Positions 44,488-58,638 of a stretch of DNA of 64,000 nucleotides are shown here, one piece after another (positions within the stretch are counted from its first letter, which is position 1; each line of letters begins with the position of its first letter). Source of the DNA: Bacillota bacterium (lineage in GTDB: Bacteria; Bacillota; Desulfitobacteriia; Desulfitobacteriales; JAJXUE01). Where the stretch lies: the NCBI GenBank assembly GCA_021783135.1, contig JAJXUE010000007.1, forward strand, positions 15,136-79,135, read 5' to 3'. The notes beneath the pieces are model-generated. The model saw only the letters and a program-made list of their open reading frames with translations, did not search any database and had not been told where the DNA came from. The translations under genes and the position numbers were made by a program.

Positions 44488-45774
44488 TTGGCTAGCGTAA
44501 AAGTTACGATTACAGGCTTGGGGCACGAAGGAGAAGGGGTTGGCCGTGTAGACGGCAAAGCCACCTTTGTTGCAGGAGCCCTACCTGGTGAAACCGTACT
44601 GACAGAAATCAGACAGCAAAAGAAGAATTTTCAACGCGGCGAGCTACGGGAAGTGCTGGAAGCGGCACCCGAGCGCATAAACCCGCCCTGCCCGGTATTT
44701 GGCCGCTGCGGCGGGTGTCAGGTACAGCAGCTGGAATATCAGGCAACCTTAAATTGGAAACGCCAAAAAGTGCAAGACGCGTTAGTTAGGTTGGGCAAGC
44801 TTGAGCAAGTGGAAGTTAGTCCGGTACTGGGTATGCCAGAGCCATGGCGCTACCGCAACAAGGTTCAACTACATGTCGGGGAGCGCAGCGGAAGCATCCA
44901 GTTGGGGTATTACGGGCATAACACTAACCGCCTGGTGGCCTTTGACGATTGTCTGCTGCTGCCGCAAAGGTTTAATGCTTTAAAGGCTCGGCTGGAGATA
45001 TTTTTCAGGGAAAATGGGGTTAAACCGCAGCAGGTACAGCAGGTCGTCATACGCAATTCACCTGTTACAGGTGAGCTGATGGTGGGGATTATAGGTGTGT
45101 TGCCGCCATTGCCGTGGCAGGAAATTAGGCGCGATTTTCCGGAGCTTAAGTCGTTAGTCGTAGTCGACCCGGTAAGTGGTAAACCAAAGTTGGCGGCCGG
45201 ACAAGCGGTAATTAATGACGTCATTTATGATAATCAATTTGCAATATCCTTCGCGTCTTTTGTGCAGGTAAATCCGGGGCAAACTAAGGCGTTGTATGCC
45301 AAGGTACTGGAGTATGCCAATTTGCAGGGACAAGAAGTGGTATTAGATGCCTATTGTGGGATTGGGACGATTACATTGGCCTTGGCGCAACAGGCCAGGT
45401 GGGTAATTGGCGTAGAGGTGGCCCCAGAGGCAATCGCGGACGCCCGGGCCAATGCCACAGCTAATAAGATTCCAAACGTTGAATTCCACGCGGCGACAGC
45501 GGAGGAACTCTTGCCCCAGCTAGCGGCGCAAAAGCTCAAAGTAGATGTGGTGGTAGTCGATCCGCCGCGCAAAGGGTGCGAGCGGGAGGTGCTCGACGCG
45601 ATAGGCAAACTAGGCCCGAAGCGGCTGGTGTATGTATCATGCGACCCGGCGACCTTGGCGCGGGATTTAGGCGTGATGCAGGAGTTGGGGTATGTGACGG
45701 TAGGGGTGCAGCCGGTGGATATGTTCCCGTGGACGGCGCACGTTGAAACGATAATTCGGATAAATCGTGCTTAA
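44488..45774 (+). CDS. rlmD: 23S rRNA (uracil-C5)-methyltransferase RlmD/RumA family
   Basis: TRAM N-domain, Fe-S Cys cluster (CPVFGRCGGCQ), SAM motif LDAYCGIGT, DPPRKG, and C-terminal DMFPWTAHVE. TTG start. Confidence 0.88.
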   Translation: MASVKVTITGLGHEGEGVGRVDGKATFVAGALPGETVLTEIRQQKKNFQRGELREVLEAAPERINPPCPVFGRCGGCQVQQLEYQATLNWKRQKVQDALVRLGKLEQVEVSPVLGMPEPWRYRNKVQLHVGERSGSIQLGYYGHNTNRLVAFDDCLLLPQRFNALKARLEIFFRENGVKPQQVQQVVIRNSPVTGELMVGIIGVLPPLPWQEIRRDFPELKSLVVVDPVSGKPKLAAGQAVINDVIYDNQFAISFASFVQVNPGQTKALYAKVLEYANLQGQEVVLDAYCGIGTITLALAQQARWVIGVEVAPEAIADARANATANKIPNVEFHAATAEELLPQLAAQKLKVDVVVVDPPRKGCEREVLDAIGKLGPKRLVYVSCDPATLARDLGVMQELGYVTVGVQPVDMFPWTAHVETIIRINRA

Positions 45775-45907: not shown

Positions 45908-46204
45908 TATTATTTTCACAGTATTTCCCAGACCTCAAAATGAGAAAAAATAAGGATAGGAGGGTGAAAAACAATGAACCCTGAATGATTTCTTTAATGA
46001 GTCTACATAAAAGCACACATCGCTAGGTCTCACAGTTGGCACAGTATCAGATGACCACTTACCAATATATCTTTAGAAAGTAAAGAAGAAAGGAAAATGA
46101 AAATGGACAATAATGAATTATAAACCGTATATATTGAAAAGCTCAAGGATATCAACACACTCTGCCAAGCAATAGAACGAACTTGCTAATATGGTTATGA
46201 CGAT

Positions 46205-46318
46205 ATGGCAGAACGCCTAGCAGCCAGCGATGCGGGATATGCAAGAGAGCTGATGGCTGTGGTTGAGCAATTCATTCAGGCACAACAATCACAAACGATG
46301 GGAGAATGTAAATGCTGA
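46205..46318 (+). pseudogene. Remnant of an ArdA-like gene 3' end plus the inter-gene junction scar
   Basis: Ends ...QSQTMGEC with DNA CAAACGATGGGAGAATGTAAATGCTGAAAGC. This matches the intact junctions CAAAGGATGGGAGGGATGTAAATGCTGAAAGT (48241-) and ...GATGGGAGGGATGTAAATG (49425-). The following MLKALIAD... start is cut off after about 8 codons. Confidence 0.5.
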
Positions 46319-46372
46319 AAGCTTTGATCGCAGACATGAGTCATAGTTTTCATAAAACGGGAGGACATCGAC

Positions 46373-46624
46373 ATGATGAGTCAATGGAAAATCAACGCAA
46401 TTAAAAAAGACTATCCCCAGGGTACACGAGTAGAGCTTGGGTCCATGGCGGGAGAACAGCAGATGCCGTTAGGTCTTCAAGGTACTGTGGAAATTGTGGA
46501 CGATATCGGGCAAATCCATGTGAAATGGGATAATGGCAGAAACCTGGTATTAGTGCCGGAGGAAGATTCATTCCGCAAATTACCGGATCAGGAACAGGGG
46601 AAGTCTCAACAGATGATCCTATAA
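46373..46624 (+). CDS. DUF4314-like small protein (common in Firmicutes conjugative elements)
   Basis: 83 aa. The pattern YP.GTRVEL..M......P.GL.GTV..VDD.GQIHV.WDNG..L.L is as recalled for DUF4314. Confidence 0.6.
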   Translation: MMSQWKINAIKKDYPQGTRVELGSMAGEQQMPLGLQGTVEIVDDIGQIHVKWDNGRNLVLVPEEDSFRKLPDQEQGKSQQMIL

Positions 46625-46641
46625 TTAAAGGAGGGAAAGCA

Positions 46642-46974
46642 ATGGATTACCCATATTTAATTGGCAATGTCTATTCGGAGGAAGTAAGAAGCGAACATTT
46701 TTTGAAAGCTACTCCGACAAACATTGCCTCTTTCATTGTAAAAAATTCGCCGCTAGATGTCATTCAAATTACTACCCCGCTGGATACTGCCTTCATATCC
46801 ACCAGAGCAGGATTTATCGACTATTGCGCCGATCAGGAATTTCTAAGGAATGAGTTGCTTCCCGTGCTGATTCCAATGCAGATGGGCGACACAGAACCCT
46901 CAGAAGTAGAGTTGGTTCCTGAAAATGAAATGAATTCGATGGATGAGGAAGGATGGGATTCCCCAGAATTTTAA
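46642..46974 (+). CDS. Hypothetical acidic protein (110 aa)
   Basis: GGAGGG SD 7 nt upstream, 17 nt after the preceding gene, followed by a strong terminator. No family was recognised. Confidence 0.55.
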   Translation: MDYPYLIGNVYSEEVRSEHFLKATPTNIASFIVKNSPLDVIQITTPLDTAFISTRAGFIDYCADQEFLRNELLPVLIPMQMGDTEPSEVELVPENEMNSMDEEGWDSPEF

Positions 46975-47011: not shown

Positions 47012-47051
47012 AAAAAGCGGTTGCATTTTCAAAAGATGCAACCGCTTTTTT
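47012..47051 (+). terminator. Intrinsic terminator
   Basis: 15-bp perfect stem AAAAAGCGGTTGCAT / ATGCAACCGCTTTTT, a 9-nt loop and a T-run. Confidence 0.85.
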
Positions 47052-47088
47052 ATTTCTCAAACTCTATTAAGGAAAGGATTGGTACAGG

Positions 47089-48261
47089 ATGATTATTGCC
47101 GAACTCAAAAACGGTGTATATCGCGATAACTATAGCATCGACATCACCTTCCCTGTTGATGAGGAAAGCATGATGGAACAGCTCAGTGGGATAAACATCA
47201 GCGACAGCAACATAGAAGATTGTCATGTTGCGAAGATAAGCGGAGACATACCTGCTCTTTGCGTACTTGAAAACAACTGCATCAATGTGGATGAGATGAA
47301 CTATCTCGCGAGACGGATAGACAGCTTTGACTACTATGAGCTTGCCAAGTTTCAAGGAGCTATTGCAAGAGAGGGTATCTGCACCATGAAAGACCTCATC
47401 AACCTAACCTTCAACCTTCACAATTATACGGTCGTCACTGATTTCTTGAACCTGAAAAACATCGGAAGTAATCATTACCTTGATAAGAACATCGGATGCC
47501 CTGCAAGTGAAATGGAACGGCTCGACTTTGAAACAATGGGCAGAAATCTTTTAAGCAGCGGTGATGGTAAGGTAACACCTTATGGTGTAGTATTTTGCAA
47601 CAGCCTTCCCATGGAAGAAGTATACAAAGGAAAAATGTTTCCCGATTATGATTACACCAGTGACTATGTATTGAAGCTGGAGATGATGAGAAAGGGTTCC
47701 CAATCAACAAGCCCGGAAAAGGTATGGCTATATCTTCCCACATCAAAAGCCTGTATTTTGAAAGCGCTCCTCCATCTCGGCGCAGACACATATAACGACT
47801 TGACCTTTCAATGTGTAGACAGCATGAGCTTGTCGGAGAGCTTTATGGATCATCTTTCCCTGATGGACAACATTGGTGAAATCAATGAATTGAGTAAAAT
47901 CATCCATGAGCTTGATCCGGAGGAAATCAAGAAACTGGAGGGGGTCATAGATTATACCCAAGCGAAAACTGCAGGAGAAATGATCGAGCTGGCAAACAAA
48001 CTTGACAGCTTCTTTTTTGTTGCAGGCATTTCCAACGTGGAGCAGTACGGCAGACACATGATTATAGAGTCCGGCCATTTTAAATATGACAGCGAGTTGG
48101 AAAGCTACGTCGACTTTGAAAAGTACGGTCAGGACCGCCTTAAACATGAGCAGGGGTGCTTCACCTCATACGGATATATCTGCCGTACTGATTCAATGGA
48201 AGAAGTCTGTGAACTGTATGAACAGCAGGAAGAAAACACCCAAAGGATGGGAGGGATGTAA
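47089..48261 (+). CDS. ArdA-like anti-restriction protein, two tandem-fused modules (390 aa)
   Basis: Internal duplication of about 190 aa. Each half ends in an ArdA-C-terminal-like motif (RLDFETMGRNLLSSGDGKVTPYGVVF; SYVDFEKYGQDRLKHEQGCFTSYGYIC), compare recalled Tn916 ArdA NYIDYQAYGRDLDLSGTFISTNHGIF. The protein is D/E-rich. Confidence 0.65.
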   Translation: MIIAELKNGVYRDNYSIDITFPVDEESMMEQLSGINISDSNIEDCHVAKISGDIPALCVLENNCINVDEMNYLARRIDSFDYYELAKFQGAIAREGICTMKDLINLTFNLHNYTVVTDFLNLKNIGSNHYLDKNIGCPASEMERLDFETMGRNLLSSGDGKVTPYGVVFCNSLPMEEVYKGKMFPDYDYTSDYVLKLEMMRKGSQSTSPEKVWLYLPTSKACILKALLHLGADTYNDLTFQCVDSMSLSESFMDHLSLMDNIGEINELSKIIHELDPEEIKKLEGVIDYTQAKTAGEMIELANKLDSFFFVAGISNVEQYGRHMIIESGHFKYDSELESYVDFEKYGQDRLKHEQGCFTSYGYICRTDSMEEVCELYEQQEENTQRMGGM

Positions 48262-49440
48262 ATGCTGAAAGTCTTTTTAACAAGAGTAGACAAAGAAAAT
48301 GGTGTATGGCTCTCGTTGCCCACTACTCCTGCAGACATAGGGGTAGCTTATGCAACACTTGATAATATCAATGGCACTGAGAACCTTGATACACGCCTCA
48401 CCGGGGTGGAATCTTCTATCCGGAATCTACGACAATACTTAATAGGAAAAAGTACCGATGACCCCAATACCATAAAAGAGCTTGACTTCATCGCTCGGCG
48501 TATAGATGGCTTTACTGAAACGGAAGCAGTCCTTTTCTCCGGCGCTCTTGGTATTGAATCCATCAACACACTGACAGACATCATCAACTTGACCTACAGT
48601 TTGGAAGGATACGAGTTGTACCCCGATGTCACCACTGCCAATGAGCTTGGGCAATATCTGGTGGAAAGCGGTGAGGTGCAAATCCATGAAAGCGCCCTGC
48701 CTTATGTGGATTATGAAAGGGTTGCAACGGAATATGAGGCAAACAACTCCGGTAGCTATACCGCAGCAGGATATGTGGCAAAGACTGGCGGCAGCATGGA
48801 GCGCATCTATGATGGGATCACGCTGCCCGATGTGAATGCCGATAAGGATTATATTTTCAATCTCAAGCTCATATCTCAGTACAGCTTTGATAGTCTGGAG
48901 GCCCCCTACACCCTCAAGTTGCCAACATCGGATATTGCCTTGCGTCAGGCAAGGGATCAGCTGCGGGTAAAACATTTTGACGAGTGTGAAATTGTGGATT
49001 TTGACTGTCCGATCGCAAACCTATCAGACAAGCTTCATATGGATGGGGACATCTATTCTCTCAACAAGCTGGCGCAGAAAATTAAAGACATGCTGCCAAA
49101 CGAGGGAATGGTCACGAAGCTTCTCGCTGCCCTTGAAGCAGAAATGCCGGAGGATTTGGGCAATACGCTGGATATCGCAGAAGACCTCGATAGGTATGAA
49201 CTTATCCCTGTCTCTGTTATCAATGCAACGGACTACGCTCATCATGTGCTCTTTGAGTCCGGCAGATATGATATATTCGTTGACGATGAGATTAATAGCT
49301 TTGTCGACTACGAGAAATATGGCAATTACAAAATGGTAGAAGATGGTGTAAAGCAGACGGCATTTGGAATGATCCGAAGAATTGATGAGCCGTTCCAAGA
49401 ACAGGAGCAAGGCTTCACACAAAAGATGGGAGGGATGTAA
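48262..49440 (+). CDS. ArdA-like anti-restriction protein, two tandem-fused modules (392 aa), paralog of the preceding gene
   Basis: ATG abuts the upstream TAA. Module ends are LPYVDYERVATEYEANNSGSYTAAGYV and NSFVDYEKYGNYKMVEDGVKQTAFGMI. It has the same C-terminal ...QKMGGM as its neighbour. Confidence 0.65.
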   Translation: MLKVFLTRVDKENGVWLSLPTTPADIGVAYATLDNINGTENLDTRLTGVESSIRNLRQYLIGKSTDDPNTIKELDFIARRIDGFTETEAVLFSGALGIESINTLTDIINLTYSLEGYELYPDVTTANELGQYLVESGEVQIHESALPYVDYERVATEYEANNSGSYTAAGYVAKTGGSMERIYDGITLPDVNADKDYIFNLKLISQYSFDSLEAPYTLKLPTSDIALRQARDQLRVKHFDECEIVDFDCPIANLSDKLHMDGDIYSLNKLAQKIKDMLPNEGMVTKLLAALEAEMPEDLGNTLDIAEDLDRYELIPVSVINATDYAHHVLFESGRYDIFVDDEINSFVDYEKYGNYKMVEDGVKQTAFGMIRRIDEPFQEQEQGFTQKMGGM

Positions 49441-49580: not shown

Positions 49581-49985
49581 TCAGCCACCGGCAGGATTTT
49601 TAGTCAGACATTCACACCCTGTATTGGCTCCCGTATGCCTCTTAATATCTTCCAATGTTGAACAGCATTGTGCTTCAGCTACATGATATAAGATCTCCTC
49701 CTCCTTAACATTTGCACAGTAACAAATTGGAATTGGGGGAGGAACGTTTTTAAACCAAATCTTGTTGACCAATTGGTCTTGACTAATGGTCATCTTACTG
49801 TTTTGTGTGTAATAAGCGACTTCACATTCGGGAGTTCTACACAAGAAAAAATGTTCTTCTTCTTCAATTTCAACGCCAGGTTGTACCTGATGTTCAACTG
49901 TTTCCTTACGTACTTTCTGCCCTATCCCATTACAAACAGGGCAATCCGGAATTACTTTTGAATTTGCGGATAGTTCAATAATCAT
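49581..49985 (-). CDS. Cysteine-rich metal-binding protein: N-terminal Zn-ribbon-like CxxC...CxxxC plus C-terminal BFD-like CxC...CxC (CopZ N-terminal-domain-like)
   Basis: CPVCNG...CRTPEC, then ICYCANV...(about 30 aa)...GCEC. The architecture is as recalled for the A. fulgidus CopZ N-domain family. TTG 49991 is an alternative start. Confidence 0.55.
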   Translation of the reverse strand: MIIELSANSKVIPDCPVCNGIGQKVRKETVEHQVQPGVEIEEEEHFFLCRTPECEVAYYTQNSKMTISQDQLVNKIWFKNVPPPIPICYCANVKEEEILYHVAEAQCCSTLEDIKRHTGANTGCECLTKNPAGG

Positions 49986-50061
49986 GAGCAAACACTTCTT
50001 TCACAACAACTTGCGTGTATTTAATTGACCTCCAGTTTTTGTCCTTCGGTTGATAGATCTT

Positions 50062-50091
50062 TTTGAAAAAGACCGGGAAACTATCCCGGCC
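50062..50091 (-). terminator. Intrinsic terminator after the thioredoxin-like gene (minus strand)
   Basis: On the minus strand: GGCCGGGATAGTTTCCCGGTC followed by TTTTT. Confidence 0.55.
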
Positions 50092-50127
50092 CATACAATT
50101 AAAATAAATCGTTCTTGGCGTTTACAT

Positions 50128-50400
50128 TTATTGACCTAGTCCGGCTCTTTTTAGTGTTTCATAGTCAATTCCCCTGTTGCTGCAGCAATCCACTAACTTT
50201 CCGTTGATAGCAACGGCAGGAACCGATTTAACGCCGTACTGCTCGGCCTTTTCAACGCATTCATTAGTATCACACTTTTTGTTTAAGTCGTATACCTTCA
50301 CTTCGCAGTTGGGACAAGCTAGAGTCTTTATTTCTTTTACAGCATTCTCACAGATGTAGCAACCAGCCGTAAAAATTTCAATCAGCCTCTTGTTAGCCAT
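50128..50400 (-). CDS. Thioredoxin-fold small redox protein (MTH895/Thioredoxin_3-like), Cys-rich
   Basis: 90 aa with CYIC and CPNC motifs plus four more Cys residues and the SVPAVAINGK pattern. ATG 50400 lies 6 nt after AAGGAGGTG and overlaps the merR stop. Confidence 0.65.
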   Translation of the reverse strand: MANKRLIEIFTAGCYICENAVKEIKTLACPNCEVKVYDLNKKCDTNECVEKAEQYGVKSVPAVAINGKLVDCCSNRGIDYETLKRAGLGQ

Positions 50401-50809
50401 TTTCCTCACCTCCTTCCGACAACCTTTCTACAATAGGACAACTATGAACAGGCCCTTGGTCGGGACATCTGCTCGATAAATCTTGTAGAACGCTTTTGAT
50501 GCTTTGTAGGTCACGTATTTTGGACTCTATCTCCTTTATCTTTTGTGAGGCAAATAGCCGAACTTCCCGACAACCAGAACTTTCGCTCTCAGTTATACTA
50601 AGAAGTTTTTTAATTACCGAAAGAGTAAACCCTAAATCTTGAGAGCGTTTTATGAACCTAATTCGCTGAATCACTTCAGGTGGAAAGATTCGGTAACCAG
50701 ATTTTGTTCGTGGGGGTTCCGATATCAAGCCTAATCTTTCATAATACCTAATCGTCTCGATATTTACGCCAGCGTTTTTAGCTAATTCGCTAATAGTCAG
50801 TCCATTCAT
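50393..50809 (-). CDS. merR: MerR-family metal-responsive regulator with Hg(II)-type cysteine triad
   Basis: HTH LTISELAKNAGVNIETIRYYERLGLI. Cys80, Cys115 and Cys124 have spacings of 35 and 9, identical to the recalled MerR triads (Tn501 C82/C117/C126; Bacillus C79/C114/C123). Confidence 0.8.
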   Translation of the reverse strand: MNGLTISELAKNAGVNIETIRYYERLGLISEPPRTKSGYRIFPPEVIQRIRFIKRSQDLGFTLSVIKKLLSITESESSGCREVRLFASQKIKEIESKIRDLQSIKSVLQDLSSRCPDQGPVHSCPIVERLSEGGEENG

Positions 50810-50860: not shown

Positions 50861-50928
50861 GGGTTTATTAGCACCATTTTAACATATCCTTATATGGAGT
50901 AAGATAAGCAAGCTGATCATGGGTATCA

Positions 50929-51239
50929 GAGTTCAAGGCTGCCCTTAAACATGAAGAATGCACAGACCTTGACTGGGCAGCAGACATTTCGCAAAACCTT
51001 GGCTGTTATGACTTTTATTTCTCACTGACATCACCGGAGGAATATGGCGTGCGCACATTACAGGCAGCGGATATATGAATTCCCTTGAACCGGTATTATG
51101 CTGTTTTGACTTTGAGCAGTACGGAAGGGATCAGATAGCAGCCGGGGGTACAGTGACAACAGAATATGGTATGATTGCCCGCAATGAAAAGGAATTTTAC
51201 TTCGACTACTATACCCCGCCGTCTACACGCAGCAATTGA
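50929..51239 (+). pseudogene. 5'-truncated, frameshifted remnant of an ArdA-like gene
   Basis: EFKAALKHEECTDLDWAADISQNLGCYDFYFSLTSPEEYG...* (stop 51076-78), then in another frame ...CCFDFEQYGRDQIAAGGTVTTEYGMIARNEKEFYFDY. This is colinear with the C-terminus of the ORF at 62840 (KYKAALQYEYCTDLDLAIDIAQNLDCYSFYSSLCSPEDYG...FLDFRQYGEAKMKEHGVKFTDYGLICRNEKEFVFEF). Confidence 0.75.
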
Positions 51240-51304
51240 TATAGTGCCTTTTGGTTTTCAAAAACTGAAAGGCATTTTTTATTTAAATAAATAGGAGGGA
51301 AAAA

Positions 51305-52171
51305 ATGCTTAAATTAATTATCAGCAACACCCAAAAAGATGAACATGGGCAGCAGCTTGCGGTGCACGTTGAGCTTCCCGCGGCAGAGGAAACGCTTCAA
51401 AAAGCTGTCGGAGAAATCGGATTGAGCGATTTCGACAACGGCGGCTATGAGATCATTGGTCACTCCTTCGGAAAATATGAGGACCTGCAGAACAACATCC
51501 CAGGAGGCGCCAACATCAATGAACTCAATCTCCTTGCCCATAAGTTCAAAGGATTTACTGAAGAACAGGCTGAGGATTTCATGTCCCTGCTCACAGACTG
51601 CGGGGATATTACGGTCAAAGACCTCATCAACAAGGCGTACTACCTTGAAGACGACTCCTATGAAATATGGCATGGCGTCACGGATTTAGATGAGCTTGGA
51701 CACCGTTTTGTAGAGGAAAAAGCACCGGATCTGCCGGAGGAAATCTTTGAAAACATTGACTATGAGGATGTAGGCTACCATGTGCAGTCCAATGACCATG
51801 GCGAGTTTACTAATGCCGGATATATTCGCAACTCCAATGCGGTAGTGGACGAGGTATACGATGGCACTAACCTCATTGAACTGATTGCCAAAGAACGGGA
51901 GAAGCAAAAATCGTTGAAAAGTAAAGACGGATCTTTAAGTAAAGAGGATGTAATGATTAAAGCAACTATCGATGGTCTGACTGCTACTGCTGTAGAAAAA
52001 GCTTGTGTTCTTGGAGTGGAAGCAACAGAGGATATCGGTGAACTTCGTAAAACGGTAGCTGAACTGATCCGTTTTTGGAGCCTTGATGAGCGATGGCTTG
52101 AACAGTTTGATATGGAGGTTCAAACCGTCATGGAGGGTACGGTGAAGCAGAGCGGCATGCAGATAAACTAA
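51305..52171 (+). CDS. ArdA-like anti-restriction protein, single module plus ~90-aa C-terminal extension
   Basis: MLKLII start like its paralogs. Module end is FENIDYEDVGYHVQSNDHGEFTNAGYI. Strong SD (AGGAGGG). It ends 13 nt before the first pilus gene, with no terminator between them. Confidence 0.6.
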   Translation: MLKLIISNTQKDEHGQQLAVHVELPAAEETLQKAVGEIGLSDFDNGGYEIIGHSFGKYEDLQNNIPGGANINELNLLAHKFKGFTEEQAEDFMSLLTDCGDITVKDLINKAYYLEDDSYEIWHGVTDLDELGHRFVEEKAPDLPEEIFENIDYEDVGYHVQSNDHGEFTNAGYIRNSNAVVDEVYDGTNLIELIAKEREKQKSLKSKDGSLSKEDVMIKATIDGLTATAVEKACVLGVEATEDIGELRKTVAELIRFWSLDERWLEQFDMEVQTVMEGTVKQSGMQIN

Positions 52172-52184: not shown

Positions 52185-52916
52185 GTGATGAATAAGTTGA
52201 AGATACTCAAGAACCGGATATTTTTAAGCGTCCTCTGCATTGTCCTGGCAGGAGCCATTTCTTTTTTGCTCCTGCCGAAGTTTTATGCAGACAAGGGTGC
52301 GACAGTGATGGTGCTTCGGGCTGCGGAGGACATCCCGGCAGGCACAAAGATACAGAGTAAATATCTTGCTATGGTGGAGGTGGGAAAATTCGGTTTGCCC
52401 GATGCCGTCATCAAAGATAAGGTCTTGGCTGAAGGGAAGATCGCGCAGACTGACATTGCGAAGGGGGACTACGTGTTTACCCAAAAGATCGGTGACTTTG
52501 TCGCCGATGAAAAGCTGGACCGTATTGCCAGGGATAATAAACGGCTGGTTACCATCAGTGTGCCAAGCATTGCCGCAGGGCTCTCCTCCCATTTAGAAAG
52601 CGGCGACATTGTGACAGTGGCTGTCTTTTCAAATCAAAAAAAAGAGGGGGACGCAAGTCAAAGCACTCCCGCCCAGGTTATCCTCTACCCTGAACTGAAA
52701 GGACTGGAGGTTTACAGTGTGGAGAATGCCCGCACACAGAGCACCGCCCAGGTCCGAAAGCAGCAAGCGGAAAATCAGCAGTCTTCCAGCGATCCCATCC
52801 CCAAGGCGGTTACCCTGATAGCTACCGAAGCGCAGGCAGCGAAACTCATCGAAGCCGAATACACGGGCAAGCTGCATCTGATCTTTGAAAAAAGGGGGGT
52901 AAGCCATGAGCAGTAA
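52185..52916 (+). CDS. cpaB: Flp pilus assembly protein CpaB-like (SAF domain plus RcpC/CpaB region)
   Basis: N-terminal TM, SAF-like VLRAAEDIPAGTKIQSKYLAMVEV, and ...LVTISV...GD.V.V pattern. The exact start is uncertain. Confidence 0.65.
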   Translation: MMNKLKILKNRIFLSVLCIVLAGAISFLLLPKFYADKGATVMVLRAAEDIPAGTKIQSKYLAMVEVGKFGLPDAVIKDKVLAEGKIAQTDIAKGDYVFTQKIGDFVADEKLDRIARDNKRLVTISVPSIAAGLSSHLESGDIVTVAVFSNQKKEGDASQSTPAQVILYPELKGLEVYSVENARTQSTAQVRKQQAENQQSSSDPIPKAVTLIATEAQAAKLIEAEYTGKLHLIFEKRGVSHEQ

Positions 52917-53643
52917 AATCATCACTGTTTGGGGCAAGGGCAACAGCGGAAAAACCACTTTTGCGGTCAACTTAGCCTGCGCTTTGGCAAACCGTGACCA
53001 CCTTGTGGGGCTCATTTCCTCCAACCTGATCTACGGCGACCTGCAGGTGTATTTTGGGCAGAGCATACCACCGGAAAAGGGACTGTTCCGTGCGCTCCAT
53101 GAAGACAATCCCAATGTGGGTGAGAAGTTTATGGAGGCCGGGGAAAGTAAAAATCTCTTTTTTCTGTCCGTACCCAATCATTACACAGGGCTTTTATGTG
53201 ACAGCGTATCCCTCCAAAGCGTGGAAAGGCTCATCACCGCATCCACTCTCCTGTTCGACATCTTACTGATTGACGGCTCGGGGGATCTAACCAATCCCAT
53301 ATCCGGAACAGGGCTCTGGCTGGCGGAAAAGGTGTACACCCTGTACAGGCCGTCTGCCTCTGCCCCTATGTGGCATAAAGGAGTAGAGGATTTTGTCCAG
53401 GAACTTCATATCGCCGACAAGCAAATCAATGTAATGCAAACACCGAATGGTGAGTTCGATGACAAAACCTTTAAGAGTCTTATAGAGCTTTCCTTTAAAT
53501 ATGAACTTCCCTTTGTAAAGCAAGCAGGTGAGCTTGAAAACGCCGGTACTCCGGTGTTTTTTTATGAGGATCGAGGGTGCAGACAGTACAGAAGAGTCCT
53601 GGAAAAAATCTCAGATGAACTATGCGGAGGAAAGGACCAATGA
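52906..53643 (+). CDS. ParA/MinD-type ATPase, TadZ/CpaE-like pilus localisation protein
   Basis: Deviant Walker A VWGKGNSGKTTFAVNLA. 245 aa. Overlaps both neighbours (11-nt and ATGA overlaps). Confidence 0.65.
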   Translation: MSSKIITVWGKGNSGKTTFAVNLACALANRDHLVGLISSNLIYGDLQVYFGQSIPPEKGLFRALHEDNPNVGEKFMEAGESKNLFFLSVPNHYTGLLCDSVSLQSVERLITASTLLFDILLIDGSGDLTNPISGTGLWLAEKVYTLYRPSASAPMWHKGVEDFVQELHIADKQINVMQTPNGEFDDKTFKSLIELSFKYELPFVKQAGELENAGTPVFFYEDRGCRQYRRVLEKISDELCGGKDQ

Positions 53644-55034
53644 ACAAGGGATTTTCAGTCAATGAACTGATCTACAAGGCCAACAAGCAGGGCTCCGACA
53701 GCGGGGAGAACAGCCTGGAAGCCCAGGACTACGGCGACATTCTGGATAAATTGCAGCGGATTATCTCTAAAAACCACTCCACCGAATTGGCACAGGTGCT
53801 GTATTCGGAAGAAGCGGAGGGAAAGCTGAAGAACCTCATCATGCAGTATTTGAATAGTGAACGGATGGTGGCAAAGGGGATTCAAAATATTTCTGAGCTG
53901 GTCGATAGGGTATACAACGATATGGCAGGCATGGGGATTTTATCGGAATACCTGAAGGACAGCGAGGTTGAAGAGATCAACGTCAATGGGTACAACGGAG
54001 TATGGGTTTTATACAAGGATAAAAAGGTGCGGCTCCCGGTAACCTTCAGCAGCCCGGAGGCTTGCTCCAACATCGCCAAGAAAATGAGCCGCTTTGGCAA
54101 TGTCATCCTGGATGGCTCAAAGCCTATAGGCGACAGCTTTATTTCACGGGGCATCCGCATGTCCGGTGCCATTGTACCCTGCGTTGATTTCGATGCCGGT
54201 GCCATTGCTTCCATCAGAAAGCAAAAGCCGTCCTATATCACAAGAGAAAACCTGATTTATTGGGGGACAGCTACAGAAGATGAGCTGGATTTTCTCACCC
54301 TCTGCGTTAATAACGGCATATCGGTAGCCATCGCTGGGGCAACCGGCAGCGGAAAGACCTCCGATATGGGATATATTCTAAGCTGTATTTCAAGTGATAA
54401 AAGAATCGTAACCATAGAGGACACCCGCGAACTGACTCTGGTCCAAGTGGATGAAAACGGCGTAATGGTCAACGATGTCATTCACCTTTTGACAAAGGAA
54501 GAACCCAATCCCATTACCATGCTGGACCTGTTGAAGCTGTCTTTGAGGCTCCACCCGGCAATCCTTGTCCCGGCTGAGATGAGGGGGAAGGAAGCCCTGA
54601 CGGTGCAGGAAGCAGGACGTACAGGGCACACCATCGTCAGCACTCTGCATGCCAACAGTGCCAGGACAGCCTATGAAAGAATCCTGACCATGTGCCTGGA
54701 AGCCGGAACCTCCTTGTCGGAAGAAAGGTTGCTTAAAAATATCGTAGAAGCTTTTCCCATTATGGTCTTTAAAATGCAGTTGCCCGACCAGTCCCGAAAG
54801 TACATGGAAATCTTCGAGGCCACCGGGGTAAAAGATGGAGAGTTGGCAGGCAATACCCTTTTCCGATACGACATTGATCATTATGAAAAAGACGAAGCTG
54901 GAAGAATCAAAACGGTTGTAGGAAGTCACAAGCACATAGGGCATATATCCCAGACCCTTGCCGAGAGGCTCTTGATCAATGGGGTTGAACGAAAGGAAAT
55001 TTGCCGTTTCGCAGGAAACAAGTTTAAAAATTGA
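53640..55034 (+). CDS. cpaF: CpaF/TadA-family secretion ATPase (T2SS-E/VirB11 superfamily)
   Basis: Walker A GATGSGKTS, Asp box VTIEDTRELT, His box GHTIVSTLHANSA. ATG 53640 overlaps the upstream TGA. Confidence 0.85.
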   Translation: MNKGFSVNELIYKANKQGSDSGENSLEAQDYGDILDKLQRIISKNHSTELAQVLYSEEAEGKLKNLIMQYLNSERMVAKGIQNISELVDRVYNDMAGMGILSEYLKDSEVEEINVNGYNGVWVLYKDKKVRLPVTFSSPEACSNIAKKMSRFGNVILDGSKPIGDSFISRGIRMSGAIVPCVDFDAGAIASIRKQKPSYITRENLIYWGTATEDELDFLTLCVNNGISVAIAGATGSGKTSDMGYILSCISSDKRIVTIEDTRELTLVQVDENGVMVNDVIHLLTKEEPNPITMLDLLKLSLRLHPAILVPAEMRGKEALTVQEAGRTGHTIVSTLHANSARTAYERILTMCLEAGTSLSEERLLKNIVEAFPIMVFKMQLPDQSRKYMEIFEATGVKDGELAGNTLFRYDIDHYEKDEAGRIKTVVGSHKHIGHISQTLAERLLINGVERKEICRFAGNKFKN

Positions 55035-55047
55035 AGGGAGGTTGACT

Positions 55048-55962
55048 ATGAATAGCATCCAGGGTTCCCTTGCCTTTGTCTTTGTCCTGATCAGCCTTGC
55101 CCTTTTCCTCCTGCTGAAGCTTAACCCTTTTGCAGTGGAGAAAAACACTTTGAAACAGCGGCGGTTGTATCTGTCTAGGACAAAGCTGAAAATCAGCGAG
55201 AGAGTGATCCTCCGGTTCACAACCCTGTTCCGGCAAACCAGATACACGCTTAAGAAATTTATCCTGATGGTTGCCGCAGCATTTGTGTCGGGTTTTTTGG
55301 CGGGGGTTTTGCTTTTTAACAACGCTGGCTTAGCAGCGGTTACAGCAGTCTGCCTTATCCCTGCTCCTTACTTTTACCTGACTGTGAAAAGTTCCAGAGC
55401 AGCGAGGGAAGAAATTGAGGGGTTGGAAAATACCATGTCCATCATCACCAACGCCTATGCTGGATGTGACGATATTATCAAGGCGGTGGAAACCTATGTC
55501 GAAGAGAAGAACCGCTATACCCCTGTGGAGTTAATGAAGCCAACACCCTTCGATGAATTTATCTCAGAAATAAAGCTTATAAATCCCAACATAGAACATG
55601 GGCTGTACCGCCTGTCTGCTAAAATCAAAAACCGATACTTTGCCGAGTGGATAAAAATGTTGATTCTCTGCTATCACGACAGGCGGCTGAAATTTGCCCT
55701 GTTTCCCGTGATAAAGTCGATGAATGATGCCAAGGCCATGCAGATTGAAAGTGACAGCATGATGAGCAGGGTATGGCGGGATTATCTGATGACGGTGGGC
55801 ATGATGTTCAGTATTATTCCATTGATGCGTTTTTCAAATGCCGAATGGTTTGCCATTCTGACCGGAACCACCCTAGGAAAATTACTGATTGTCGTCATGC
55901 TCGTAACCGCTCTGGCAACTTCGTTCTTCGTGATGAAGATGACCAGGCCTGCCAACCGATAG
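55048..55962 (+). CDS. tadB: TadB-like type II secretion system F-family membrane protein
   Basis: N-terminal TM, cytoplasmic helical domain and C-terminal TM pair. It is in the canonical position after cpaF. ATG lies 7 nt after GGGAGG. Confidence 0.65.
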   Translation: MNSIQGSLAFVFVLISLALFLLLKLNPFAVEKNTLKQRRLYLSRTKLKISERVILRFTTLFRQTRYTLKKFILMVAAAFVSGFLAGVLLFNNAGLAAVTAVCLIPAPYFYLTVKSSRAAREEIEGLENTMSIITNAYAGCDDIIKAVETYVEEKNRYTPVELMKPTPFDEFISEIKLINPNIEHGLYRLSAKIKNRYFAEWIKMLILCYHDRRLKFALFPVIKSMNDAKAMQIESDSMMSRVWRDYLMTVGMMFSIIPLMRFSNAEWFAILTGTTLGKLLIVVMLVTALATSFFVMKMTRPANR

Positions 55963-56001
55963 AAAACTCAACCAAAATCAATTTTTCAGGGAGGTTTAAT
56001 T

Positions 56002-56907
56002 TTGTTCTATCAAATCATCGTCTTTGTCCTGCTGACTGCGGCAGGATTTTTAATTTGCAGGCAAATACTCAAAATACCCAAGCTGAGCATGAAAAAAAAC
56101 ATCAAAAACTTACAGGTAGAAAAAGAAAAAACGGGAGCAAGGTTGCTCAACCTTTTTGTGATGCCCCTTGTAAAGCCGGTATCCCGATTGATCAGAATTG
56201 AACCGGAGAAAGAAGCAAAAATGGCGTCAATGCTAAGACGTGGAGGACTTGCGCTAACACCAAAGGAATATCATGCACGTGCTCTCATCTGTGCTGCTTT
56301 CACCCTGCCGCTCTTGATTCTGCTTTTGGCAATCGGAGCAACAAACATTGCTCCTGCAATTCTTATCTTTTCGGTGGTAGTATATTTCCACTTCATGACC
56401 GACCTCAAAGACAAGCTGAAAGAGAAAAAGGAATTAATCGAAATAGAACTTCCAAGTTTTGTTCGCTCCATCCTCTATAAGCTTGAAGATGTGCGGGGCG
56501 GCAACGAAAATACGGTTGTCCAGGTGGACCTGATCCAGATATTTGAGGACTATCTAAAGGTAGCGAGTGAGGTTTTCTACTATGACATTGCGGTTCTGAT
56601 CATGGAGATGAAAGCCAAGGACATAGAAACAGCGCTTCGAAACTTCAGTGAGCGTGTCGGACTTCTTGAGGTATCCTTTTTGGTCAATGCCCTTATCGGC
56701 CTATACCGCGGAGAACATCAGGGCGAGGCTCTAATGTATCTTGCCAAGGATATGGACATCAAGGCGAAGGAAGCCCTGCGCAAAAATCTGGGCAAGCTGC
56801 CCGGCAAAATAAAAATGGCATCCATACCCCTTGTGGTAGTGACCCTGGCAAGCCTTTTATATGTTATAGGCTCCCATTTAGTCCGATCCATGGGGGGCCT
56901 TTTTTGA
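56002..56907 (+). CDS. tadC: TadC-like type II secretion system F-family membrane protein
   Basis: Same architecture as the preceding gene (a second T2SS-F paralog). TTG start 7 nt after GGGAGG. Confidence 0.65.
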   Translation: MFYQIIVFVLLTAAGFLICRQILKIPKLSMKKNIKNLQVEKEKTGARLLNLFVMPLVKPVSRLIRIEPEKEAKMASMLRRGGLALTPKEYHARALICAAFTLPLLILLLAIGATNIAPAILIFSVVVYFHFMTDLKDKLKEKKELIEIELPSFVRSILYKLEDVRGGNENTVVQVDLIQIFEDYLKVASEVFYYDIAVLIMEMKAKDIETALRNFSERVGLLEVSFLVNALIGLYRGEHQGEALMYLAKDMDIKAKEALRKNLGKLPGKIKMASIPLVVVTLASLLYVIGSHLVRSMGGLF

Positions 56908-56962
56908 TGTGAAAACGGGGCAACCCTTTTCAAATAAAACTATATTATTCAGGAGGTAAAGC

Positions 56963-57214
56963 ATGAAAAACGGAACAAACACAATCCAAATCACGGAGGA
57001 AAGGAGGTCAAACCCCATGAGAAACAAAATGGCAAACGCCTTTTCAAAGGCAAGAGGACTTATGGTTAACAAGTCCGGTGACCAGATGACAGGCTGGCTC
57101 ATTGTCGTACTGATCGTAGTGGTAGTGGGTGCAGTATTCATGACCCTGTATCAGGGTTCCATTACGCAAATCTGGAACAGTATTGTCACCAAGATTACAA
57201 GTCTTTTGGGCTAA
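56963..57214 (+). CDS. Flp-like type IVc pilin candidate 1
   Basis: Basic leader ending ...NKSG, then DQMTGW and a 20-aa hydrophobic helix. The mature part would be about 44 aa. ATG 57017 is an alternative start and aligns better with paralog 2. Confidence 0.55.
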   Translation: MKNGTNTIQITEERRSNPMRNKMANAFSKARGLMVNKSGDQMTGWLIVVLIVVVVGAVFMTLYQGSITQIWNSIVTKITSLLG

Positions 57215-57240
57215 ATAACGGCAAACTGTAAAATTACCCA

Positions 57241-57279
57241 CAAAGGTAAAAAGGAGAAACTTTCTCCCTTTTACCTTTG
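57241..57279 (+). other. Long hairpin after pilin gene 1 (attenuator or 3' stabiliser)
   Basis: 19-bp stem CAAAGGTAAAAAGGAGAAA / TTTCTCCCTTTTACCTTTG with one mismatch and a 1-nt loop. No canonical U-tract follows. Confidence 0.55.
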
Positions 57280-57377
57280 ATGAAATGTTTTGCAACTGAT
57301 ATTACGGGCCTCAACTCTGGTAAAACCTTAAAAAATCAAACTGAAATCAAAAAATAACTATACGGAGGCATTTTTCT

Positions 57378-57587
57378 ATGATGAGAACTTTGAGAAACAA
57401 AATGGCGATGGCAGGCTTAAAGGCTAGGAAAGTATTGACCAATCAATCCGGCGATCAGATGACAGGCTGGCTGATCGTTGTACTGATCGTAGTCGTCGTC
57501 GGTGCGGTATTTATGACGCTTTACCAGGGTTCTATTACGCAGATTTGGAACAGTATTGTAACCAAAATCACCGGCCTTTTGAGCTAA
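57378..57587 (+). CDS. Flp-like type IVc pilin candidate 2 (paralog of 56963-57214)
   Basis: SGDQMTGWLIVVLIVVVVGAVFMTLYQGSITQIWNSIVTKIT is identical to paralog 1 over 42 aa. The leader differs. It has its own SD (ACGGAGG). Confidence 0.55.
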   Translation: MMRTLRNKMAMAGLKARKVLTNQSGDQMTGWLIVVLIVVVVGAVFMTLYQGSITQIWNSIVTKITGLLS

Positions 57588-57637
57588 ACTATTCGGCGGC
57601 TGCGAAACAACACCGCCAGAACAGGGGGTGTAAAGGG

Positions 57638-58126
57638 ATGAACAGGCAGTGCCGGAGCTTATGGGGGAGATGTTCTCCCCCTTTTTCTTTGAAAAAGGTG
57701 TTGGTTAATCGAAAAGGTAGTGCCTATTATGAACTGATTATCAAAACCTTGGTGGTCATTACACTGATGGCGACGGTGATGTCCTTCTTAAGCATCTTCA
57801 CCACCTATCTGAGTCTTAACCAGGTCTGCCGCCGGGTGGTCCGGGTCATTGAGCTGGAGGGACAGGTATCGGACAATGCATATGATGTTTTTTATCGGCT
57901 CAAGGAACAAACCGGGCTGTCTCCTGAAATGAGCATCGGGGATGTCAATTATTGTGATGAACAAAACCAAAAAATTCAGCTAAGAGATACTTTTACAGTA
58001 AAGATGAAATACAACTATGCCTTTACGGTGTTTCGGCCTTCCTCCTCTCCACCGGTGCAAATCATCATACCCATGGAGGTGCGCATCACGGGCATGTCGG
58101 AAAAATATTGGAAGCTTTTAGAGTGA
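57638..58126 (+). CDS. TadE-like minor pilin / pseudopilin candidate (DUF4320-like)
   Basis: ...NRKG/SAYYELIIKTLVVITLMATVM has Gly, then Glu at +5, then a hydrophobic helix, which is a class III signal-peptide-like site. The start is uncertain (ORF open from 57545). Confidence 0.5.
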   Translation: MNRQCRSLWGRCSPPFSLKKVLVNRKGSAYYELIIKTLVVITLMATVMSFLSIFTTYLSLNQVCRRVVRVIELEGQVSDNAYDVFYRLKEQTGLSPEMSIGDVNYCDEQNQKIQLRDTFTVKMKYNYAFTVFRPSSSPPVQIIIPMEVRITGMSEKYWKLLE

Positions 58127-58152
58127 AAGCGCCGGAAGGGAGGGATAATTTT

Positions 58153-58638
58153 GTGGGCAAAACCGGACCCATTTTAAAAAGCAAAAAAGGCGATGGGCTG
58201 GTGTTTATCTTGATCCTCATCTTTTTTATTATGACCCTTGCAGCCATCGTCATTGAATATTTCCGCATGGACAGCCTGTACCAGCAGGTGGAATATGTGC
58301 TCCAGCGGGGAGTGAATTCCTCCGTGGAGTACGCCATGCTGGACGAATACCGCAAAGACGGCTATGCCCGGATGGACAGCGCCCTTGCGGAAGAACAGCT
58401 CTACGGCTATCTTCATGAAAGCATGCAGCTGGACCGAGATCTGAACAAGTATTCCGGGGAGCAATGGGTGTACACCCTTGAAATCCAGAGCCTCACCGCA
58501 ACCGATGATCCGCCCCGGCTCATCTTGAAAGGGCAGTTGAGAACCCGGAGCGTTTTTAGTTTCCTGACTGGCGAGGTGCGGCTGCCCTTTACTCTCTCCA
58601 GCAGCAACAACAGAATTGATGAAGGAGGTTCCCCATGA
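58153..58638 (+). CDS. TadE/TadG-like minor pilin candidate
   Basis: ...KSKKGDGLVFILILIFFIMTLAAIVIEYF N-terminal hydrophobic helix. GTG 58153 lies 8 nt after GGGAGGG. Its 3' end overlaps the next gene (ATGA). Confidence 0.45.
   Translation: MGKTGPILKSKKGDGLVFILILIFFIMTLAAIVIEYFRMDSLYQQVEYVLQRGVNSSVEYAMLDEYRKDGYARMDSALAEEQLYGYLHESMQLDRDLNKYSGEQWVYTLEIQSLTATDDPPRLILKGQLRTRSVFSFLTGEVRLPFTLSSSNNRIDEGGSP

What the first reader, a model, noticed from the sequence alone, without database searches (positions are those of the whole stretch)
47089..49440. Array of ArdA-like anti-restriction genes built from tandem-fused modules (at least 7 intact modules in 4 genes, plus remnants)
Four intact genes (47089-48261, 48262-49440, 51305-52171 and 62840 to beyond 64000) and three decayed fragments (46205-46318, 49441-~49478, 50929-51239) belong to one paralogous family. 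Each module of about 190 aa starts with a beta-strand-like ...LxLP...ExxxAL block. Each contains an (I/L)NxL(A/S)xx(I/L) helix and ends with Y-[IVL]-D-[YF]-E-x-[YV]-G-x(6-8)-G-x-[FY]-T-x2-G-[YIM]. This matches my recollection of the C-terminal region of Tn916 ArdA (NYIDYQAYGRDLDLSGTFISTNHGIF). The proteins are visibly D/E-rich, as expected for DNA mimics. Two genes, and probably the truncated fourth, contain two modules fused in one polypeptide. ArdA acts as a dimer, so a covalent pseudo-dimer is an unusual architecture. The sequence divergence between modules suggests a portfolio aimed at different restriction or defence specificities. Such a dense, multi-paralog anti-defence array next to a pilus operon is not an arrangement I know to be characterised.
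Basis: partly seen in the sequence, partly recalled or inferred. Interest (0 to 1): 0.7.

Follow-up and report, generated by a model that had tools for sequence, protein, structure and literature searches.

The report
Array of double-module ArdA anti-restriction genes
Just inside one end of an integrated mobile element sit four very acidic genes of the known ArdA "DNA-mimic" anti-restriction family; three encode two ArdA copies fused in a fixed order, a form that is common in Clostridia sequence databases but that I found described in no paper.

Summary
Genes A (47089-48261), B (48262-49440), C (51305-52171) and D (62840 to beyond the window; 394 aa in the source contig) all match Pfam ArdA well above threshold. 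Split into halves, A, B and D each contain two complete ArdA modules; C has one module plus a helical tail.

An AlphaFold model of B finds only ArdA structures (PDB 2W82 and phage ArdAs). The four genes are the most acidic long ORFs in the window.

Of the three "fragments", only 50929-51239 is a real ArdA pseudogene. 46205-46318 is the 3' end of a different small gene. 49441-49478 is conserved spacer.

First modules resemble each other, and second modules resemble each other. The same N-then-C order holds in 134 independent homologues, so the fusion is old and predates the gene duplications.

The architecture is not rare: 614 clusters at 50% identity score E<=1e-30, from Desulfitobacterium, Lacrimispora, Oscillospiraceae and others, some already named "antirestriction protein ArdA". 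Similar arrays with DUF4314, a Dam-like methylase and Tad-like pilus genes recur, including in a distant human-gut contig.

Most likely these are single-chain ArdA DNA mimics blocking type I restriction on entry into a new host. The inter-module geometry and the targets are untested. This is a new variant of a known kind, of moderate interest.

The parts
45738..45774 (+). Left boundary of the mobile element: the last 37 nt of the rumA-like (TRAM/tRNA-U5 methyltransferase) gene, which are carried with the element.
   Evidence: Homology with L003, which has a different left flank, begins at window 45738. The gene is identified by the Pfam families listed.
46146..46341 (+). It ends in QTMGECKC and in the junction ATGGGAGAATGTAAATG.
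   Evidence: The gene is intact in L009 7946-8341 and L011 8162-8548. It has no Pfam hit. The N-module HMM gives only 6 bits.
46373..46624 (+). DUF4314 gene (83 aa).
   Evidence: PF14192, E 5.5e-27. A DUF4314 gene also lies next to the ArdA pairs in L015.
46642..46974 (+). 110-aa protein with an acidic C-terminus; no family match.
   Evidence: Conserved in L009.
47012..47050 (+). 18-bp-stem hairpin followed by a T-run (terminator-like), 38 nt before gene A.
47089..48261 (+). Gene A, a double ArdA of 390 aa: N-type module 47089-47658, C-type module 47659-48258.
   Evidence: PF07275 64.4 bits with 2 stretches. Halves score 24.4 and 46.9 bits. HMM hits. dN/dS 0.10-0.15 against L009 and L013.
48247..48264 (+). 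A/B junction ATGGGAGGGATGTAAATG: the MGGM tail, the stop codon and the next start codon, with an embedded GGGAGG Shine-Dalgarno sequence.
   Evidence: Two exact copies against 0.02 expected by chance. The same junction occurs in relatives.
48262..49440 (+). Gene B, a double ArdA of 392 aa: N-type module 48262-48843, C-type module 48844-49437.
   Evidence: PF07275 61.9 bits. Halves score 37.7 and 29.0 bits, plus DUF6329. AF2 model pLDDT 83.6. Foldseek top hits are 2w82 and a phage ArdA.
49441..49479 (+). 12-codon ORF in the conserved spacer after B; not an ArdA fragment.
49581..50809 (-). Three-gene cassette lying inside the array: zf_CopZ/Fer2_BFD protein 49581-49991, thioredoxin-like 50128-50409, MerR regulator 50393-50809.
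   Evidence: Pfam families. The segment 49469-51212 is absent from L009 and L010 and present in L013.
50926..51239 (+). Pseudogene: the 3' ~100 codons of a third, D-like double-ArdA gene, frameshifted near 51065.
   Evidence: C-module HMM hits in two frames. In one frame in L013; homologous to the intact gene X of L012.
51243..51276 (+). Hairpin followed by a T-run (terminator-like), 28 nt before gene C.
51305..52171 (+). Gene C, 288 aa: one N-type ArdA module (51305-51835, net charge -26) plus a ~110-aa helical tail.
   Evidence: PF07275 65.3 bits with 1 stretch. The tail has no Pfam or C-module match. The tail unit is duplicated in homologue P0183. The AF2 model has low confidence, pLDDT 54; the tail is predicted as long helices.
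52185..62284 (+). Tad/Flp-type pilus operon: CpaB-like SAF/RcpC, ParA-like, T2SSE ATPase, two membrane proteins, two Flp-like pilins, DUF4320, a 1079-aa DUF8194/8195 protein, and a prepilin peptidase.
   Evidence: Pfam families; ORFs.
62352..62783 (+). DUF6075 gene (143 aa).
   Evidence: PF19552, E 2.7e-6.
62840..64000 (+). Gene D, a double ArdA cut off by the window end (394 aa in the contig, TTG start): N-type module 62840-63433, C-type module from 63437.
   Evidence: PF07275 97.3 bits. Halves score 73.3 and 29.1 bits. The full gene is L005 10489-11673.

Best explanation
These are ArdA-family DNA-mimic anti-restriction proteins in a derived, single-chain form. An ancient fusion joined two diverged ArdA copies, an N-type and a C-type module. 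Each copy keeps all three ArdA domains. Whole-gene duplication then produced a variable array (A, B, a now-broken third gene, D, and the single-module C), located just inside one end of an integrated, probably conjugative element.

Shown:
- family membership
- the ArdA fold (for B)
- acidity
- the fixed N-C order
- purifying selection on A and B
- A-to-B translational coupling through a Shine-Dalgarno sequence embedded in the MGGM tail
- the same gene neighbourhood in related and distant elements

Inferred:
- After the element enters a new cell, these proteins are made early.
- The N and C modules of one chain pair through their domain-3 motifs, reproducing the ~42-bp-like ArdA dimer without depending on protein concentration. 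The Orf18 dimer has a Kd of about 1 uM.
- The divergent paralogues widen the range of enzymes blocked.
For: - Pfam ArdA hits for all four genes, and for each half taken separately.
- The N-module profile matches the 2W82 sequence over residues 5-157, E 5.5e-4. For the C-module profile, 2W82 is the top hit at E 0.046.
- The AF2 model of B (pLDDT 83.6) shows the same strand/helix order twice.
- Foldseek finds only ArdA: 2w82 with E 3.7e-5, probability 1.0 and TM 0.67-0.69 normalised to the target; phage ArdAs with E 8e-8.
- Net charge is -14 to -26 per module. The four genes are the most acidic ORFs in the window.
- Residues equivalent to the Orf18 interface (I138, D139, Y140) are kept in all 7 modules. 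Y137 is aromatic in 5 of 7 (the role of these residues is from PMC2731889).
- N modules group with N modules and C with C. In 134 independent proteins the order is N then C in 100% and 99.3% of cases.
- dN/dS is 0.10-0.26 for A and B.
- The array sits next to a Dam-like orphan methylase, DUF4314 and YodL genes. These are typical companions of ArdA domains in Firmicutes conjugative elements (PMC5512222). Anti-defence genes cluster in leading regions (PMC11541004).
- The element is mobile: the same left end is found with a different flank in L003, and a large serine recombinase lies beside the array in L011.
Against: - No functional data exist for any double-module ArdA.
- Six of the seven modules carry -14 to -18 net charge, below the -22 to -29 reported for canonical ArdA monomers (PMC3906837).
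- Module A1 scores just under the Pfam cut-off. It has R and E where Orf18 has the interface residues Y137 and L134.
- The N-type profile aligns with a gap at Orf18 L127-G128.
- pTM is only 0.54, so the relative position of the two modules is not confidently predicted.
- The 24-residue linker would have to run nearly the whole length of a module to allow a canonical domain-3-to-domain-3 pairing.
- Neither a relaxase/oriT nor a T4SS was seen in the 28 kb of element that I could read, so 'leading region' is an inference.
Confidence: 0.7

Rival explanations
1. The fold is the same but the assembly and target differ. The two modules lie head-to-tail as a rod and chains pair further, or the co-translated A and B products pair. 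This would give a much longer DNA mimic aimed at defence systems other than type I R-M, such as BREX or other DNA-tracking complexes.
For: - pTM is 0.54 despite good local confidence.
- The linker is short, conserved and only moderately confident (residues 175-198).
- Both modules keep an interface-type motif that could serve contacts between chains.
- Double-ArdA genes occur as tightly coupled pairs here and in L015.
- Another DNA mimic, Ocr, has more than one target class. This last point is from my own knowledge and was not checked here.
Against: No evidence exists for any specific alternative target. Monomeric ArdA is already sufficient for anti-restriction (PMC3906837), so no larger assembly is required. 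The module length and domain order are canonical.
Confidence: 0.17
2. These are ArdA-fold proteins used for something other than anti-defence, for example titrating host DNA-binding regulators or nucleoid proteins, or acting in the donor cell.
For: ArdA proteins have been reported to alter gene expression in E. coli (titles and abstracts of PMC10746416 and PMC13300388). The modules are less acidic than canonical ArdA (against PMC3906837).
Against: The neighbourhood contains an orphan Dam-like methylase and polyvalent-protein-type domains, at the end of a mobile element. The family is consistently associated with mobile elements.
Confidence: 0.08
3. The copies are decaying duplicates with no current function.
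For: One member is a frameshifted, truncated pseudogene. Array content varies among relatives.
Against: A, B, C and D are intact in several genomes. dN/dS is 0.10-0.26 for A and B. The N-C architecture is conserved across hundreds of clusters.
Confidence: 0.03

Closest known systems
Tn916 Orf18 ArdA (PDB 2W82; complexes 7BTO/7BTR) and plasmid ArdA (ColIb-P9, pKM101)
   Same: Same Pfam family and same three-domain fold. The domain-3 'antirestriction' motif (Y-I-D-Y...G) and the hydrophobic pair after the final G are present. Strongly acidic. Carried by conjugative elements.
   Different: Canonical ArdA is a single module of 165-177 aa that forms a weak homodimer. Here two diverged modules are fused in one 390-394-aa chain in a fixed N-C order. 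Net charge per module is lower. A conserved disordered Q/E-rich ...MGGM tail is added. Several paralogues sit in one element.
ArdA domains inside polyvalent proteins of Firmicutes conjugative elements (Iyer, Burroughs, Aravind 2017, PMC5512222)
   Same: An ArdA module fused to other sequence in Clostridia mobile elements, with the same companions (YodL, LPD domains, methylases). L016 shows an N-type module at the N-terminus of a 1747-aa YodL protein.
   Different: Polyvalent proteins combine different domains. Here the only partner is a second ArdA module, and the word 'tandem' does not occur in that paper.
Small ArdA proteins sArdN/sArdC (PMC12548430)
   Same: Both show that ArdA is modular and that its parts can evolve as separate or recombined units. 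The 131-aa gene upstream of the array in L009 and L011 might be of this kind, but this is unproven.
   Different: The sArdA proteins are fragments about one-third the length of ArdA. The proteins here are the opposite: duplications of the whole ArdA.
Phage T7 Ocr
   Same: An acidic DNA mimic that blocks type I R-M enzymes by occupying the DNA groove.
   Different: An unrelated fold that forms a homodimer mimicking about 24 bp. No sequence or structural match was found here.

Membership tests
ArdA (Pfam PF07275) | Significant match to the family profile above its gathering score (27 bits). | tested here: met
   Whole genes score 64.4, 61.9, 65.3 and 97.3 bits. Single modules score 46.9, 37.7, 29.0, 73.3 and 29.1 bits, with C1 within the 65.3 of gene C. 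A1 scores 24.4, just below the cut-off.
ArdA (Pfam PF07275) | Elongated three-domain fold as in PDB 2W82. | tested here: met
   Tested for B only. The AF2 model has pLDDT 83.6 and the domain pattern appears twice. Foldseek top hits are 2w82_B and 2w82_A (E 3.7e-5, probability 1.0, TM 0.67-0.69 by target) and phage ArdA proteins. The model of C is too poor to use. A and D were not modelled.
ArdA (Pfam PF07275) | Domain-3 antirestriction/dimer-interface motif (Orf18 L127, L134, Y137, I138, D139) and the VF motif. | tested here: met
   D139 is invariant. The I138 position is aliphatic in 7 of 7 modules. The Y137 position is Y or F in 5 of 7 (R in A1, N in C1). A hydrophobic pair follows the last G in all modules. 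Exceptions: the N-type profile aligns with a gap at L127-G128, and A1 has E at the L134 position.
ArdA (Pfam PF07275) | Net charge of about -22 to -29 per monomer (PMC3906837). | tested here: inconclusive
   Net charge is -15, -18, -18, -18, -17 and -14 for A1, A2, B1, B2, D1 and D2, and -26 for C1. The modules are clearly acidic but mostly below the canonical range.
ArdA (Pfam PF07275) | Single module of about 165-177 aa. | tested here: not met
   A, B and D are 390-394 aa with two modules. C is 288 aa with one module plus a tail. This makes the proteins a variant architecture rather than canonical members.
ArdA (Pfam PF07275) | Dimer that mimics about 42 bp of bent DNA. | not testable with these tools
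   Model coordinates are not returned, and fold libraries compare single chains only. pTM 0.54 leaves the inter-module geometry open.
ArdA (Pfam PF07275) | Relief of type I restriction in vivo, or binding to the methyltransferase core. | not testable with these tools
   This requires an experiment.
Polyvalent proteins of conjugative elements (PMC5512222) | Two to fifteen different conflict-related domains in one polypeptide. | tested here: not met
   Only ArdA modules were found, plus a short DUF6329 match inside B2. Relatives such as the L016 protein do meet this feature.

The most novel reading that the evidence does not exclude
The N-C double ArdA is a distinct, widespread class of single-chain, asymmetric DNA mimic. 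Its two halves have specialised, for example one for the methylase core and one for HsdR, or for a non-type-I defence system. Coupled pairs and arrays of these genes would then form a broad-spectrum counter-defence cassette characteristic of a large, undescribed family of Clostridia mobile elements that carry Tad-type pili.
Probability: 0.2. Interest if true: 0.7.

Novelty: new variant of a known kind. Interest (0 to 1): 0.45.

Why it matters
ArdA is a textbook DNA mimic and a determinant of how far conjugative elements spread, but only the single-module homodimer has been studied.

A conserved covalent hetero-tandem, present in hundreds of sequence clusters from gut and environmental Clostridia, offers a natural test of two open questions. 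The first is what the ArdA dimer is for: dimer-interface (domain 3) mutations abolished anti-modification but not anti-restriction. The second is whether asymmetry lets a mimic address several targets.

Variable arrays of such genes at the entry end of an element also fit the current picture of anti-defence islands. They could help predict the host range of elements in anaerobes such as Dehalobacter, Desulfosporosinus and gut Oscillospiraceae.

Tried and rejected
- Megablast of 46000-52200 against plasmids found nothing.
- The search for related loci with the wide alignment A1 failed for lack of conserved stretches. A narrower alignment gave 6 loci.
- NCBIfam gave no hit for any ArdA-like gene. 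PHROGs gave only a weak anti-restriction hit for B.
- I considered gene C's tail as a degenerate C-type module and rejected it: there is no HMM signal even with filters off. The tail is a ~65-aa unit, duplicated in P0183 and predicted as long helices at low confidence.
- I considered the 131-aa upstream gene as a small ArdA. The result is inconclusive, and the gene could not be modelled because it lies outside the window.
- I first read the MGGM tail as only a ribosome-binding site for the next gene. That holds only in part: D and B keep the tail without a closely following gene, while array-terminal genes lack it.
- Two literature searches for Tad pili on Firmicutes conjugative elements returned nothing relevant.
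- Searches for tandem, double or multiple ArdA found no description of the fused form. The closest statement is that some database ArdAs carry long N- or C-terminal extensions (PMC3906837).
- One dN/dS comparison (B against L013) was invalid because of a codon indel and is ignored.
Full report
**Source and setting**

The window is part of contig DAIDQL010000005.1 of the metagenome-assembled genome GCA_027447525.1. Up to about 45.7 kb it carries housekeeping genes: gatB, a leuA-like gene, isocitrate/isopropylmalate dehydrogenase, PcrA/UvrD, DNA ligase and transporters. It also carries a rumA-like methyltransferase gene (44488-45774).

From about 46 kb the G+C content falls from ~0.50 to ~0.42-0.44. 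The same DNA occurs on another contig (L003) with a completely different left flank. Homology there starts at window 45738, 37 nt before the rumA stop. The region to the right is therefore a mobile element inserted at the 3' end of rumA.

Near-identical copies (95-97% DNA identity) lie in Candidatus Dehalobacter alkaniphilus, Desulfosporosinus sp. I2 and D. metallidurans. Copies at 65-72% identity lie in a Clostridia MAG. In one of those MAG loci (L011), a large serine recombinase sits beside the array.

**Checking the observation**

The four ORFs exist as described. D continues past the window end to 394 aa. All four match Pfam ArdA far above its 27-bit cut-off.

When A, B and D are cut in half, each half matches nearly the whole ArdA profile on its own. 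C has one module and a 111-aa tail with no match.

The proteins have pI 4.3-4.5 and net charge -31 to -36. They are the four most acidic of the 45 long ORFs in the window.

Of the three proposed remnants, only one holds up.
- **50929-51239** is a true ArdA pseudogene. It is the last ~100 codons of a D-like double gene, frameshifted here, in one frame in L013, and intact as a third double gene in L012.
- **46205-46318** is the 3' end of a separate 128-131-aa gene that is intact in L009 and L011. A ~990-bp deletion truncated it here. It shares only the tail and junction sequence, and its ArdA similarity is not significant.
- **49441-49478** is a 12-codon ORF in the conserved spacer after B.

**What the proteins are**

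An AlphaFold2 model of B, built from 29 homologues, has mean pLDDT 83.6. It shows the same sequence of strands and helices twice, at residues 2-174 and 199-373. A 24-residue coil joins the two copies, and the last 16 residues are disordered.

Foldseek against the PDB returns only the two chains of 2W82 (ArdA) as significant hits, with E 3.7e-5, probability 1.0 and TM 0.67-0.69 normalised to the target. Against viral models, the top hits are all single-module ArdA proteins. A profile of N-type modules matches the 2W82 sequence over residues 5-157 (E 5.5e-4). For the C-type profile, 2W82 is also the best hit, though weakly (E 0.046).

Membership of the ArdA fold family is therefore established for B and is very likely for the other genes. 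The size criterion is not met, and most modules are less acidic than the -22 to -29 quoted for canonical monomers (PMC3906837). I therefore file these proteins as a variant architecture rather than as ordinary ArdA.

**Evolution of the architecture**

Within the window, first modules (A1, B1, C1, D1) are most similar to one another, at 23-35% identity. Second modules (A2, B2, D2) are also most similar to one another, at 27-32%. The two modules of one protein are only ~19-30% identical, with weak scores.

An exhaustive profile search found 4,362 cluster representatives at E<=1e-3 and 614 at E<=1e-30. Nearly all of the top 150 span both modules, and their median length is 392 aa. Scoring these with separate N and C models gave 154 of 174 proteins as N-C. 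In 134 proteins that were not used to build the models, the first module is N-type in 100% and the second is C-type in 99.3%. One caveat applies: these proteins were retrieved with an N-C profile, which favours that order.

The fusion is thus old, heterotypic and fixed in order, and whole genes were later duplicated. Members occur in Desulfitobacterium, Anaerosolibacter, Lacrimispora, Oscillospiraceae and Anaerotruncus. They are labelled either 'antirestriction protein ArdA' or 'hypothetical protein'. A and B are under purifying selection, with dN/dS 0.10-0.26.

**The array and its neighbourhood**

Array content differs among relatives:

| Locus | Order of genes before the Tad operon |
|---|---|
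| L011 | A, B |
| L012 | A, B, X (an intact third double gene) |
| L009, L010 | A, B, C |
| Window, L013 | A, B, MerR/thioredoxin/CopZ-finger cassette, truncated X, C |

D lies after the pilus operon. It is followed by a Dam-like orphan methylase, YodL and SpoVG-like genes, and a second Tad-like operon.

A and B are joined by ATGGGAGGGATGTAAATG. This encodes the tail MGGM, the stop codon and the next start codon, and it places a GGGAGG 7-9 nt upstream of that start. The same junction recurs in relatives and in a distant contig, whereas the last gene of an array usually lacks MGG. The conserved disordered tail therefore probably doubles as the ribosome-binding site for translational coupling.

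A human-gut contig, deposited as an unverified 'Bacteriophage sp.' record (L015), is only 25-29% identical at the protein level. It carries four N-C genes in two coupled pairs, together with LPD28, DUF4314, a D12 methylase, DUF3849 and T2SSE/T2SSF genes.

**Mechanism**

Published work on Orf18 ArdA provides the following background.
- The monomer is a 70-A row of three domains.
- Two monomers join through a small, mostly hydrophobic domain-3 interface (L127, L134, Y137, I138).
- The dimer imitates about 42 bp of bent DNA and fills the DNA groove of type I enzymes (PMC2731889).
- The dimer is weak, with a Kd of about 1.3 uM. Dimer-interface (domain 3) mutations abolished anti-modification but not anti-restriction (PMC3906837).

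All seven modules here keep the aliphatic-Asp-aromatic core of that motif. Five keep the aromatic residue at the Y137 position.

The most economical reading is that the N and C modules of one chain form the ArdA 'dimer' intramolecularly. That would give full activity at the very low protein concentrations present just after DNA entry, and it would free the two halves to diverge.

This last step is inference only. pTM is 0.54, no coordinates were available, and the 24-residue linker would need to be almost fully extended. A head-to-tail rod, or pairing between chains (for example between A and B), remains possible. The paralogue 'portfolio' idea fits the deep divergence and the gain and loss of genes among relatives, but it is untested. 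That the array is in the leading region is also inferred, because I saw no relaxase, oriT or T4SS gene in the 28 kb of element I could read.

**Novelty**

ArdA, its DNA mimicry, its presence in leading regions (PMC11541004) and its fusion into polyvalent proteins of Firmicutes elements (PMC5512222) are all known. So is the existence of database ArdAs with long extensions (PMC3906837), and small one-third-length ArdAs were described in 2025 (PMC12548430).

I found no paper describing the ArdA-ArdA hetero-tandem or arrays of it. The held library is incomplete, so this is absence of evidence only.

**Verdict**

This is a real feature, correctly recognised as ArdA-like. It is a new variant of a known kind, common in sequence data but uncharacterised, and of moderate interest.

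Noticed in passing
window 48247-48264 and 49426-49443; L005 11657-11678; junctions in L011, L012, L014 and L015: The conserved disordered C-terminal tail ...Q-x-MGGM is encoded by ATGGGAGG(N)ATG followed by a stop codon and then the next gene's start. The tail codons therefore contain the Shine-Dalgarno sequence of the downstream gene, which looks like dual coding for translational coupling. Array-terminal genes mostly lack MGG, but B and D keep it without a closely following gene.
   Followed up: partly
window 49581-50809 (minus strand): A MerR regulator, a thioredoxin-like protein and a zf_CopZ/Fer2_BFD protein form an opposite-strand cassette inside the ArdA array, next to the truncated third gene. 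The 49469-51212 segment is absent from Dehalobacter (L009) and Desulfosporosinus sp. I2 (L010) and present in D. metallidurans (L013).
   Followed up: partly
L003 1-7476, compared with window 45738: On another metagenome contig, the same element end is preceded by defence-type genes (SLFN/AlbA plus a CAP12-PCTIR TIR domain, NA37, and the GAPS4 pair) instead of rumA. This could be the joined ends of an excised circle, with defence cargo at the far end of the element, or a second insertion site.
   Followed up: no
window 52185-62284; L005 17458-20432: The element carries two Tad/Flp-type pilus operons: CpaB-like, ParA-like, T2SSE ATPase, Flp-like pilins, DUF4320 and a prepilin peptidase. The first operon also encodes a 1079-aa repeat-rich DUF8194/8195 protein with PxNPDNPPKN repeats. 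No T4SS gene was seen in the part of the element I could read. I found no literature on Tad pili in such elements.
   Followed up: partly
L015 (MT835617.1) 1674-4012 and 7781-10048: A human-gut contig deposited as an unverified bacteriophage carries four double-ArdA genes in two coupled pairs, with LPD28, DUF4314, a D12 methylase, DUF3849 and Tad-like ATPase genes. It looks like a fragment of a related mobile element rather than a phage.
   Followed up: partly
L016 (Vescimonas fastidiosa pMM35_01) 11968-17211: An N-type ArdA module forms the N-terminus of a 1747-aa YodL-domain polyvalent protein inside a T4SS conjugation module (VirB4 of the CD1110 family, VirB6-like, topoisomerase III, relaxase nearby).
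   Followed up: no
window 45874-45915, 47012-47050 and 51243-51276: Three related hairpins with T-runs share a TTTTCAAAA loop region. The second and third each sit only 28-38 nt upstream of the next gene start. This leaves little room for a standard promoter after the terminator, so read-through or an unusual promoter arrangement is possible.
   Followed up: no
window 51836-52168; P0183: The tail of gene C is a ~65-aa unit (MIKATIDGLTATAVEKACVLG...LIRFWSLDERWLEQFD), predicted helical at low confidence. It is present twice in a 366-aa homologue, has no family match, and might replace the second ArdA module as a pairing element.
   Followed up: partly
L009 7010-7651 and 7946-8341; window 46100-46341: Relatives have two further small genes (213 aa and 131 aa) between rumA and the array. 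The window lost most of both through a ~990-bp deletion. The 131-aa protein has an LxFP...INxLxxAIE pattern reminiscent of ArdA domains 1-2 but no significant similarity.
   Followed up: partly
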